60,000 nt of DNA from Botryllus schlosseri (Eukaryota). Shown piece by piece: positions 3,544 through 5,440 of the stretch. How positions within the stretch are numbered: the first letter of the stretch is position 1; each line of letters starts with the position of its first letter. Both the position numbers and the translations under genes were made by a program. The notes below the pieces were generated by a model. The model was not told the DNA's origin. It worked only from the letters and a program-made list of their open reading frames with translations, and made no database searches. The stretch spans positions 27,344,001 to 27,404,000 of the forward strand of contig CM119371.1 of NCBI GenBank assembly GCA_051294905.1, in the 5' to 3' direction.

Positions 3544-4377
3544 ATGCTGTTAACCTTACCATCCAATGCTAGTATGTCAATTTTTGAAAATACACCATCG
3601 AATTTTGAAACAGAACTCTACAGTGAACTAGAAATGCCACAACACCTTGTCGGTCTTTCTGAAATAAGTTTTGAAAACAATTTTCAACCCCGGATTGAAG
3701 TGGCAAGAAATACTATGGGGTTCAGATTTGGTGATGAAAAATCAGGCGTCAAGCAATATTATATTCCAGAAGGTTCCTATCACAATGTCGCGGAAATGTT
3801 AGAAGCTTTTGAAAAATACTACATGGGTGAAATATTCATCATTCAAGGATATGACGAGTTTAGAATCGCTTTTCGATATTTACCATCACACAGAGTTAGA
3901 CACACGCGAAGTATATCGACAAATAATAACATCGGGGGTATGATTACAAGACCGAAAGACCTTAACACCGAGAAATCAATAGAGACTTACGGATTGTCAC
4001 CTATTGGGCCCGTGTTGAGTAAATTAGCTTTTAAGCGCGTATATGCCCCGCATTCCACTATGCCGATAGAATTCATATTTTCCCCTGCTGTGAAATTAGA
4101 TCCCATCGATCAAATTTATGTATATTCTGATTTGATTCAACCACGACCCCATGGTAATCAGTTACAACCACTCTTACGAGTCATCACAGTAACATGTAAA
4201 CCAAACCAGAATCAAACTAGTGTCTTTCATAAACCATACTATTTCCCATTGGCGAAAAACAAATTTCGTCGAATAAGAATATATTTACATGATAAATTTG
4301 GCAATCCAATTAAATTTCAAAAAGGACCTGTCACTGTCAGTCTTTTATTCCGCCGAAAAGCTGTGGACTCGATATGA
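3544..4377 (+). CDS. Minor capsid protein (penton, single jelly-roll) 1
   Basis: LTLPSNAS..NTPSNF, VGLSEISF, IYVYSDLI..G..PLLRVI, KPYYFPL, IRIYLHDKFGNPIKF. Confidence 0.9.
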   Translation: MLLTLPSNASMSIFENTPSNFETELYSELEMPQHLVGLSEISFENNFQPRIEVARNTMGFRFGDEKSGVKQYYIPEGSYHNVAEMLEAFEKYYMGEIFIIQGYDEFRIAFRYLPSHRVRHTRSISTNNNIGGMITRPKDLNTEKSIETYGLSPIGPVLSKLAFKRVYAPHSTMPIEFIFSPAVKLDPIDQIYVYSDLIQPRPHGNQLQPLLRVITVTCKPNQNQTSVFHKPYYFPLAKNKFRRIRIYLHDKFGNPIKFQKGPVTVSLLFRRKAVDSI

Positions 4378-5051
4378 CATACGTCACAATTTCTGGAGAT
4401 CACGCGGAATTCTCAGTCGATCTTGCCAAAACTATCATTTGCAATGAAATCTCACTTATGGACATAAGCTTTAATGTTGAGTTGAACAATCAAATTATAA
4501 TTGAACGCGATGAAAAACTTTGGGAGTATCGTAATCCACAACAATTACTAGATACATACCTTGCCCCTATTGGAAATTATGCTACCCCGAAACAGTTGAT
4601 GCATAGGATTTTATCTGAAAGATTTCCGTATAATACTGTTTATAACATAGAGAAAATCAGTGGAGAACTATTCCGAATTCTAACCCCGATATATATTACA
4701 ATCCACCCCGGTAGTATTCTAGAAAAATATTTCAATGTCACACGCGACCTAACACCACGGTTATGTAATTCCACATTAATCAGGTGTAAACCGGTACCCA
4801 CTGAGATAAGATATCTTTTTGTTTATTGTGACTCAGTCAAGCATCGTCACGTGGGTGATTATATGAGTCAACTGCTTCGCGTTATTCAAATCAAAACCAC
4901 TCCACGTTACCACGAAGAGATCATTTATGAGAAACCGATATATTTTCCAGTATCAACAAATCACATCCAGAATATAAAAATCTCCATTAGAGACCAATTT
5001 GGTCAGTTGATCGAGGGTATACACACTACGTTGACACTTCATTTACGATGA
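4374..5051 (+). CDS. Minor capsid protein (penton) 2
   Basis: EISLMDISF; YLFVYCD..VGD..SQLLRVI; KPIYFPV; IKISIRDQFGQLI; same C-terminal signature as penton 1. Confidence 0.85.
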   Translation: MTYVTISGDHAEFSVDLAKTIICNEISLMDISFNVELNNQIIIERDEKLWEYRNPQQLLDTYLAPIGNYATPKQLMHRILSERFPYNTVYNIEKISGELFRILTPIYITIHPGSILEKYFNVTRDLTPRLCNSTLIRCKPVPTEIRYLFVYCDSVKHRHVGDYMSQLLRVIQIKTTPRYHEEIIYEKPIYFPVSTNHIQNIKISIRDQFGQLIEGIHTTLTLHLR

Positions 5052-5440
5052 TTTTAACACTGACCAATTCTAGGAATGGTATAGGTTTCGAACACTGGCT
5101 GTCCACTGTTAACGAAATCTCTACGAGATACCGTGAGATAGCGCTTATGGAGATGAATATGACATTGACCAAACCTATACCGGGACGATATTTGTTTGTC
5201 TATTGTAATATTATCAATCCACGAATGGTCGGGGACACATTTGTTAATTTACTCCGTGTCATCCCGTTACAAAATAACACCATGTCACAAAATTGGATAT
5301 CGACGAATCCATATTATTTTCCGATATCGCAAGATGTAATACACTCCGTTTGTATTTCATTGAGAAATGAATTTGGTGACCCTATAAATATAGACAACCA
5401 ATCATTGCAAGTCACATTTAACATTAGGAAACAATTATGA
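5048..5440 (+). CDS. Minor capsid protein (penton) 3, minimal form lacking the variable insert
   Basis: EIALMEM directly followed by YLFVYCNII..VGD..NLLRVI, NPYYFPI, VCISLRNEFGDPI. Confidence 0.85.
   Translation: MILTLTNSRNGIGFEHWLSTVNEISTRYREIALMEMNMTLTKPIPGRYLFVYCNIINPRMVGDTFVNLLRVIPLQNNTMSQNWISTNPYYFPISQDVIHSVCISLRNEFGDPINIDNQSLQVTFNIRKQL

What the first reader, a model, noticed from the sequence alone, without database searches (positions are those of the whole stretch)
3544..5440. Three tandem, divergent penton paralogs including a 130-aa minimal jelly-roll
All three share the YVY(S/C)D..(V)G...LLRVI..PxYFP..IxI.L.D.FG signature but have central inserts of very different size (277, 225 and 130 aa). 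Most Polintons are described with one minor capsid gene. Inference: heteromeric vertices or alternative receptor-binding pentons, with the insert-less copy as a structural filler or special-vertex subunit.
Basis: partly seen in the sequence, partly recalled or inferred. Interest (0 to 1): 0.75.

Follow-up and report, generated by a model that had tools for sequence, protein, structure and literature searches.

The report
Polinton virus with three penton genes
An intact virus integrated in an animal genome has three different genes for the protein that caps the corners of its shell, where most relatives have one, which suggests the corners are built from specialised, possibly mixed, subunits.

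Summary
Confirmed. Window 3544-5440 holds three intact, overlapping penton (PX, minor capsid) genes of 277, 225 and 130 aa inside a complete 15,410-bp Polinton/adintovirus with terminal repeats and a 6-bp target duplication. Models of ORF2 and ORF3 are confident single jelly-rolls whose best matches are viral pentons; ORF3 lacks the whole DE insert. Four of six element families sampled in this genome carry the triple, and two carry only ORF1+ORF2. All three genes are under purifying selection (dN/dS about 0.12-0.28). A tree indicates an old P1/P2 duplication, then P3 from the P2 line. P1 and P2/P3 have lost complementary ancestral motifs, a sign of divided labour. The most likely mechanism is a mixed vertex like tectivirus P5/P31 (about 50%; predicted 1:2:2 pentamer only weakly supported, 0.38 against best control 0.06). 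The main rival is separate vertex types as in PBCV-1. Duplicate pentons, including this clade's two-penton form, and insert-less pentons are already in Buck et al. 2024; I found no report of three. The penton genes were almost silent in three RNA runs. Verdict: new variant of a known kind, moderate interest.

The parts
3544..4377 (+). Penton 1 (P1, 277 aa): jelly-roll with ~140-aa DE insert; keeps the N-terminal (P/F)SN..N loop and the HI-loop Phe; VGD motif altered
   Evidence: not folded on its own
4374..5051 (+). Penton 2 (P2, 225 aa): jelly-roll with ~105-aa DE insert; N-terminal loop deleted; VGD kept
5048..5440 (+). Penton 3 (P3, 130 aa): insert-less single jelly-roll, P2-type
3316..3531 (+). 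71-aa hydrophobic ORF upstream of P1, present (59-77 aa) in the four three-penton families and not in the two two-penton families
   Evidence: no Pfam hit
5437..5811 (+). 124-aa basic, glycine-rich core-type protein (orthologue labelled 'Cupiennin' in Buck et al.)
5813..7084 (+). Major capsid protein (PY/hexon), 423 aa
   Evidence: weak Pfam Capsid_N E 0.083; family-B orthologue (80% identical) labelled Hexon in the Buck supplement
7081..7527 (+). Maturation protease (adenain-like), 148 aa
   Evidence: family-B orthologue labelled Adenain; no Pfam hit of its own
2217..3293 (+). Retroviral-type integrase with chromodomain
   Evidence: Pfam rve 3.3e-15, Chromo 9.8e-10
891..1499 (+). A32/FtsK-type packaging ATPase
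   Evidence: Pfam Pox_A32 4.3e-06
7551..7904 (.). Right terminal inverted repeat; its partner lies 15.4 kb upstream, outside the window (L016:1996-2485)
7905..7910 (.). 6-bp target-site duplication, identical at the left end

Best explanation
This is an endogenous Polinton/adintovirus whose single ancestral penton gene was duplicated long ago (P1, P2) and again later (P3, from the P2 line, with loss of the DE insert). Shown: three homologous jelly-roll genes, kept by purifying selection, with complementary loss of ancestral motifs (about 0.9 that all three are functional vertex-type proteins). Inferred: they co-assemble into mixed five-fold vertices. P1 and P2 would present two different outward insert domains, and insert-less P3 would fill the remaining ring positions, relieving crowding and making the vertex asymmetric, as P31 does beside P5 in tectiviruses. 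Stoichiometry and ligands are unknown.
For: Complete element with pPolB, ATPase, integrase, MCP, protease, TIRs and TSD. AlphaFold2: P3 pLDDT 91.4, pTM 0.86; P2 pLDDT 87.2, pTM 0.75. P3's top structural matches are chains of Sputnik (Z 11.8, rmsd 3.0, 128 aligned), PBCV-1 (Z 11.4, 3.2, 128) and the mavirus penton (Z 11.3, 2.9, 124), against Z 6.6 or less from rank 8 down. P2's top match is Z 12.6, rmsd 2.7, 120 aligned. The triple is kept in families A-D, whose MCPs are only 48% identical between A/B and C/D. dN/dS A vs B: P1 0.15, P2 0.28, P3 0.12; C vs D: P3 pN 0.25 vs pS 0.79. Motif split (44 outside single pentons as reference): the N-terminal-loop Asn (43/44) is kept in 6/6 P1 and 0/10 P2/P3. 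The HI-loop Phe (41/44) is kept in 6/6 P1 and 2/10 P2/P3. (V/L)GD is kept in 10/10 P2/P3 and 0/6 P1. The three outside sequences grouping with P1 and the three grouping with P2/P3 follow the same split for VGD and the N-terminal loop. Of the 150 best representatives, 11 are two penton domains in one chain, and 6 of these put a 132-151-aa insert-less domain before a long one. Predicted P1:P2:P3 = 1:2:2 pentamer: score 0.38, best of 3 controls 0.06, contact agreement at least 52%, partner pLDDT at least 65. The mark was reached by 51 of 78 solved complexes and 2 of 108 mismatched pairs, but at 0.60 or under by only 5 of those 78 and by all 4 mismatches that passed. Precedent: the PR772 penton is 3 P5 + 2 P31 (PMC6750898 passages).
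Against: The complex prediction is weak, may come from likeness to solved homopentamers, and was not compared with homopentamers (one job only). Insert-less pentons of about 130-145 aa appear as the only labelled penton in three published adintovirus records, so P3 could form its own pentamer. PBCV-1 uses two penton paralogs as separate homopentamers. The motif split rests on six families that form three related pairs. In three RNA runs with reads on the element, depth over the penton genes was 0-0.31x, so expression is not shown. P1 was not folded alone. No virion of this element is known to me.
Confidence: 0.5

Rival explanations
1. Separate homopentamers at different vertices of one particle: a common vertex (for example insert-less P3) and one or more special vertices (P1, P2) for attachment, packaging or genome release, as PBCV-1 does with P1 and P1v1.
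For: In PBCV-1, eleven vertices are P1 pentamers and the unique vertex is a pentamer of P1v1, which has a much larger DE insert (PMC9617893 passages). Both PBCV-1 chains are top structural matches. Insert-less pentons appear sufficient alone elsewhere. The element encodes a packaging ATPase.
Against: Complementary motif loss is more simply explained if neighbours in one ring supply the missing parts (inference). Two-penton sister families lack P3, so P3 cannot be the ancestral common vertex. Fused long+short pentons put unlike domains side by side. In the prediction, the score fell to 0.06 when P1 was replaced (weak).
Confidence: 0.25
2. P3 (or P2) has left the vertex and serves as a cement, scaffold or assembly chaperone, with P1 or P1+P2 as the true penton.
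For: P3 is dispensable in families E and F. A/B P3 sits on a long branch (0.87). P2/P3 lost the loop and Phe that are almost invariant in single pentons.
Against: P3 keeps the full fold and the VGD, LLR and Y motifs and is as conserved across A-D as P1 and P2 (35-38% vs 38-43% and 30-38%).
Confidence: 0.12
3. Alternative pentons used in different particles, tissues or stages (for example differing receptor use), each as a homopentamer.
For: The DE inserts differ in size and sequence and change faster than the cores (A vs B pN 0.31 vs 0.19 for P1; 0.35 vs 0.25 for P2).
Against: The genes are tightly ATGA-coupled in one block with no AATAAA between them. Insert dN stays well below dS, so there is no sign of diversifying selection. 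P3 has no insert with which to bind anything.
Confidence: 0.1
4. P2 and P3 are decaying, non-functional duplicates carried along by a copying transposon.
For: The region is almost untranscribed in three runs. Some copies have stops or frameshifts.
Against: Synonymous sites are near saturation while the reading frames and folds are kept across four families. Breaks are sporadic and also hit the MCP.
Confidence: 0.03

Closest known systems
Polinton/adintovirus PX penton (Krupovic 2014, PMC4028283; Starrett, 10.1101/697771)
   Same: [quoted passage not shown]
   Different: Three divergent copies instead of one; two of them lack the N-terminal loop motif that is nearly invariant in single copies.
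Two-penton adintoviruses of Buck et al. 2024 (PMC11071296): Adinto10012, 11189, 18043, 23690, BK011010; also Adeno7806 and Adoma5526
   Same: Tandem Penton1/Penton2. Adinto10012 (named there from the tunicate Botryllus schlosseri) reads almost the same as family E here (by eye). Adeno7806 pairs a short insert-less penton with a long one.
   Different: No third penton was labelled in the readable part ('penton3' 0 hits). Their record matching family B lists P1 as hypothetical, with no P2/P3 entry between P1 and the core gene (11 of 15 places seen). I saw no analysis of selection, motif partition or stoichiometry in the passages read.
Tectivirus PRD1/PR772 P31 + P5 heteropentamer (PMC6750898)
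   Same: A 126-aa bare jelly-roll (P31) shares the vertex with a homologous jelly-roll that carries a bulky extension; the bare one is proposed to avoid steric clash.
   Different: P5's extension is a C-terminal trimeric spike, not a DE insert, and there are two components, not three. This is a works-like analogy only; no homology was tested beyond the shared fold class.
PBCV-1 pentons P1 and P1v1 (PMC9617893)
   Same: Two divergent penton paralogs in one virus that differ mainly in DE-insert size; both are among the top structural matches.
   Different: Giant virus; separate homopentamers (11 common + 1 unique vertex).
Mavirus/Sputnik virophage penton (PMC6048507)
   Same: Jelly-roll with an insertion domain between strands D and E; Z about 11-12 to P2 and P3.
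   Different: Purified mavirus penton is a homopentamer of one protein.

Membership tests
Polinton/Maverick (adintovirus) | Protein-primed family B polymerase | tested here: met
   1286-aa ORF just upstream of the window (L016:5310-9170); Pfam DNA_pol_B_2 E 2.7e-4, 20.4 bits, below the curated cut-off of 25.8
Polinton/Maverick (adintovirus) | RVE integrase | tested here: met
   Pfam rve 3.3e-15
Polinton/Maverick (adintovirus) | Packaging ATPase, DJR major capsid protein, protease | tested here: met
   Pox_A32 4.3e-06; MCP only weak Capsid_N 0.083; MCP and protease named through labelled family-B orthologues; MCP not folded
Polinton/Maverick (adintovirus) | Terminal inverted repeats, 5-8-bp TSD, 13-25 kb | tested here: met
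   TIR arms 91-97% identical, 6-bp TSD, 15,410 bp
PX / single jelly-roll penton | Single jelly-roll fold like virophage/NCLDV/adenovirus pentons | tested here: met
   P3 and P2 models and fold searches; P1 by homology only
PX / single jelly-roll penton | Located next to, or one gene from, the MCP | tested here: met
   The block ends one gene upstream of the MCP
PX / single jelly-roll penton | Forms pentamers at five-fold vertices | tested here: inconclusive
   One mixed 1:2:2 prediction, weak support; homopentamers not tested
Tectivirus-type heteropentameric vertex (works-like) | Paralogs co-occupy one pentamer in the virion | not testable with these tools
   Needs biochemistry or cryo-EM
PBCV-1-type unique-vertex penton variant (works-like) | Variant homopentamer at one vertex only | not testable with these tools
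   Needs an asymmetric virion structure

The most novel reading that the evidence does not exclude
A lineage of animal Polintons has evolved an obligate three-component, asymmetric vertex. P1 and P2/P3 have split the ancestral penton's interfaces so that none works alone, an insert-less subunit acts as spacer, and other lineages reached the same solution by fusing a bare jelly-roll to an insert-bearing one. This would be a eukaryotic parallel of the tectivirus heteropentamer.
Probability: 0.3. Interest if true: 0.7.

Novelty: new variant of a known kind. Interest (0 to 1): 0.47.

Why it matters
Virions of classical Polintons had not been observed as of the nematode Polinton preprint (10.1101/2023.08.22.554363 passage). 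Long-term selection on three distinct vertex proteins is hard to explain for a pure transposon, so it adds indirect evidence that these elements make particles. The 2-to-3 series within one genome is a compact test case for how a homopentameric capsid vertex becomes heteromeric or specialised, and it can be tested with three small recombinant proteins. Its weight is limited because duplicate and insert-less pentons have already been noted.

Tried and rejected
Pfam and PHROGs gave no hit for any of the three. PDB sequence search gave nothing below E 0.69. Foldseek against PDB gave no hit at E 0.001 or better; its best was the PBCV-1 chain at 1.2e-3. PRD1 P31 did not appear among the 50 rows listed, which shows nothing about homology. 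The word-index homologue search for P3 found one protein. Viral-contig scans and phage tblastn found nothing. The metagenome scan gave 2 loci from 112 pattern matches: one single-penton and one two-penton element. A broad outside survey of penton copy number was therefore not possible.

Programmed -1 frameshift fusion of P1-P2 or P2-P3: no canonical slippery heptamer at those junctions in any of six families, and the P2/P3 frame offset differs between A/B and C/D; not supported. Two independent origins of P3: suggested by the free tree but not required (AU p 0.506); left open. Family F was fetched as an expected single-penton control and proved to have two. Only one F locus could be read, and no single-penton family was found in this genome. 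No RNA holder was listed on record; run X9 had no reads on the stretch (no test). Earlier scan notes: nothing found.

Full report
OBSERVATION. The three ORFs are there: 3544-4377 (277 aa, P1), 4374-5051 (225 aa, P2) and 5048-5440 (130 aa, P3), each overlapping the next by ATGA. Their C-terminal ~80 residues align at 33-42% identity, E 5e-13 to 1e-16. An alignment of 16 paralogs from six families shows inserts of about 140, 105 and 6 residues between strands D and E.

CONTEXT. The block lies in a complete Polinton/adintovirus. It has a pPolB just upstream of the window, an A32-type ATPase and an rve integrase with chromodomain, the three pentons, a basic core-type protein, an MCP and a protease. 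The terminal inverted repeats and a 6-bp target duplication give 15,410 bp. The genome (496 Mb, 219 contigs) holds many copies. For P3, 150 of 561 candidates were scored: 12 full-length family-A matches, none with a stop, and 90 near-full-length family-B matches, 2 with stops (my hand count). The host is probably a colonial tunicate, since a published record named from Botryllus schlosseri reads almost the same as family E (by eye). This is an inference at organism level only.

FOLD. AlphaFold2 gave P3 an all-beta model (134 sequences; pLDDT 91.4, pTM 0.86). It gave P2 a jelly-roll with an alpha/beta insert (125 sequences; pLDDT 87.2, pTM 0.75). Against 48,161 PDB chains, P3's top rows were 3j26_N (Z 11.8, rmsd 3.0, 128 aligned), 6ncl_a6 (11.4, 3.2, 128), mavirus penton 6g41_A (11.3, 2.9, 124), 8rbt_S (10.2), 8h2i_bG (9.8), 8roq_M (8.6) and 8hif_y3 (7.7), then 6.6 or less. 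P2 gave the same seven, led by 6ncl_a6 (Z 12.6, rmsd 2.7, 120 aligned). Only 6g41 is titled as a penton; that the other chains are the pentons of those capsids is recalled or inferred from length. In BFVD, P3's best match is a 161-aa protein of Drosophila-associated adintovirus 2 (E 2e-8). The ESM Atlas's nearest named cluster is the Sputnik V18/19 minor capsid (0.92, 52% of members; a lead only). P1 was not folded alone.

DISTRIBUTION AND HISTORY. I read loci of six families: A (12 loci plus one degraded copy), B (5), C (5), D (7), E (5) and F (1). A-D carry three pentons: P3 was seen in 12/12, 5/5 (one with an altered C-terminus), 4/5 and 7/7 loci. E and F carry two. MCP identity is 80% A-B, 78% C-D, 48% A/B-C/D and 32-35% to E/F. 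The tree used jelly-roll columns only (88 rows: 16 local, 50 single-domain representatives and 22 halves of 11 fused proteins; the other representatives were left out; 133 columns; LG+G4). All P1 fall in one clade (96/91*), P2+P3 in a sister group (95/75, not starred), and both together at 85/83. The free tree split P3 in two, but one origin is not rejected (AU p 0.506). My reading is that P1/P2 duplicated before A-F diverged and P3 arose from the P2 line with loss of the insert. The root is not fixed, so loss of P3 in E/F is not excluded.

SELECTION. Nei-Gojobori counts for A vs B give dN/dS 0.15 (P1), 0.28 (P2) and 0.12 (P3), against 0.11 for the core gene and 0.08 for the integrase. For C vs D, P2 gives 0.11, and P1 and P3 are saturated (pN 0.19 and 0.25 vs pS 0.78 and 0.79). 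pS is near saturation, so the ratios are rough, but all are far below 1. Inserts change faster than cores yet remain constrained. Among 12 family-A loci P1 is open in 10, P2 in 9 and P3 in 12 (chosen by P3 similarity). This looks like sporadic decay after insertion, which also hits the MCP.

DIVISION OF MOTIFS. Against 44 outside single pentons, the N-terminal loop with an Asn conserved in 43/44 is kept by 6/6 P1 and missing in 10/10 P2/P3. An HI-loop Phe (41/44) is kept by 6/6 P1 and 2/10 P2/P3. The VGD hairpin (V 41, G 44, D 32 of 44) is kept as (V/L)GD by 10/10 P2/P3 and by 0/6 P1. Three outside sequences in the P1 clade and three in the P2/P3 group follow the split for VGD and the loop. 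The six families form three related pairs, so these are not independent counts. From general jelly-roll topology (recalled, not measured on the models), the BC and HI loops lie on the same outer face as the DE insert and the EF hairpin lies at the base. This is the pattern expected from duplication with complementary degeneration.

WIDER FAMILY. A profile search of 1.84 billion representatives gave 5466 hits at E 0.001 or better. Of the best 150, 11 hold two penton domains in one chain. Six of these, in three tree groups, place a 132-151-aa insert-less domain before a long one; their DNA could not be checked. The metagenome scan gave one single-penton and one two-penton element.

COMPLEX. One job, P1:P2:P3 = 1:2:2, P3 scored, folded without alignments: 0.38, best of 3 controls 0.06, contact agreement at least 52%, partner pLDDT at least 65. 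Verdict: weak support. The mark was reached by 51 of 78 solved complexes and 2 of 108 mismatched pairs, but at 0.60 or under by only 5 of the 78 and by all 4 mismatches that passed. The job is unlike the calibration set, and a pass may reflect solved penton rings.

EXPRESSION. In three RNA runs with reads on the element (3-13% of each run read; 90% likeness, so family A only), depth over the penton genes was 0-0.31x, while 288-861 reached about 200x per direction in one run. A fourth run had no reads. Late-gene expression is not shown. No canonical slippery site joins the penton ORFs.

MECHANISM. Shown: three penton-fold genes under long-term selection with partitioned motifs. Inferred: mixed vertices (0.5), separate vertex types (0.25), a non-vertex role for P3 (0.12), alternative particles (0.1), decay (0.03). 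Precedents read as passages: the PR772 vertex is 3 P5 + 2 P31, with P31 proposed to avoid steric hindrance (PMC6750898); PBCV-1 has P1 at eleven vertices and P1v1 at the unique one (PMC9617893); the mavirus penton is a homopentamer with a D-E insertion domain (PMC6048507).

PRIOR WORK. Krupovic 2014 (PMC4028283; part 1 of 4 read) defines a single PX. Buck et al. 2024 (PMC11071296; passages) report duplicate pentons and pentons without a DE insert. Their supplement labels Penton2 in seven records and shows three ~130-145-aa insert-less pentons. 'penton3' and 'triplicate' gave 0 hits in six files, four of them cut when stored, and three further archives could not be read, so a triple may be recorded there unseen. 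Passages of 10.1101/697771, 10.1101/2023.08.22.554363, PMC11161782, PMC11131425, 10.1101/2022.07.12.499685 and 10.64898/2026.10.13.758929 and eight searches (listings) showed no three-penton Polinton. Most subscription papers are outside the library.

VERDICT. The feature is real and kept by selection, and it is a new variant of a known kind. What I did not find reported is the triple, the 2-to-3 series, the motif partition and the fused short+long pentons. Interest 0.47.

Noticed in passing
window 3316-3531: A 71-aa hydrophobic ORF between integrase and P1, with 59-77-aa counterparts in families B, C and D but none in the two-penton families E and F. It resembles by eye the 'Macc' protein of Adinto7556. 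Its co-occurrence with P3 may be shared ancestry.
   Followed up: partly
window 377-901: Strongly transcribed in one run (about 200x per direction), with a GT..AG intron near 565-653, a second joint 560-653, poly(A) at 901 and many reads joined to foreign sequence at 377. This is either an element transcript or a piece of a copy exonised into a host gene.
   Followed up: no
window about 7290-7500: Single-cell run X11 has about 30x strand-biased reads over the 3' part of the protease gene with many substitutions, so probably from another copy.
   Followed up: no
P0014, P0062, P0080, P0103, P0123, P0032, P0007, P0009, P0013, P0016, P0113: Proteins with two penton jelly-rolls in one chain; six begin with an insert-less domain. 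Genomic context unknown.
   Followed up: partly
L041:1610-3478: A metagenomic element with two tandem pentons (314 and 272 aa) whose inserts look low-complexity or helical, apparently an independent duplication.
   Followed up: no
G000, families A-F: At least six Polinton families coexist, several with dozens of largely intact copies; every family sampled has at least two pentons.
   Followed up: partly
window 10763-11403: A ~640-bp near-perfect inverted-repeat element (arms 97% and 93% complementary), MITE/foldback-like, outside the Polinton.
   Followed up: no
L017/L018/L025, downstream of the protease: Families C, D and E carry one or two extra 95-105-aa ORFs after the protease that family A lacks.
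   Followed up: no
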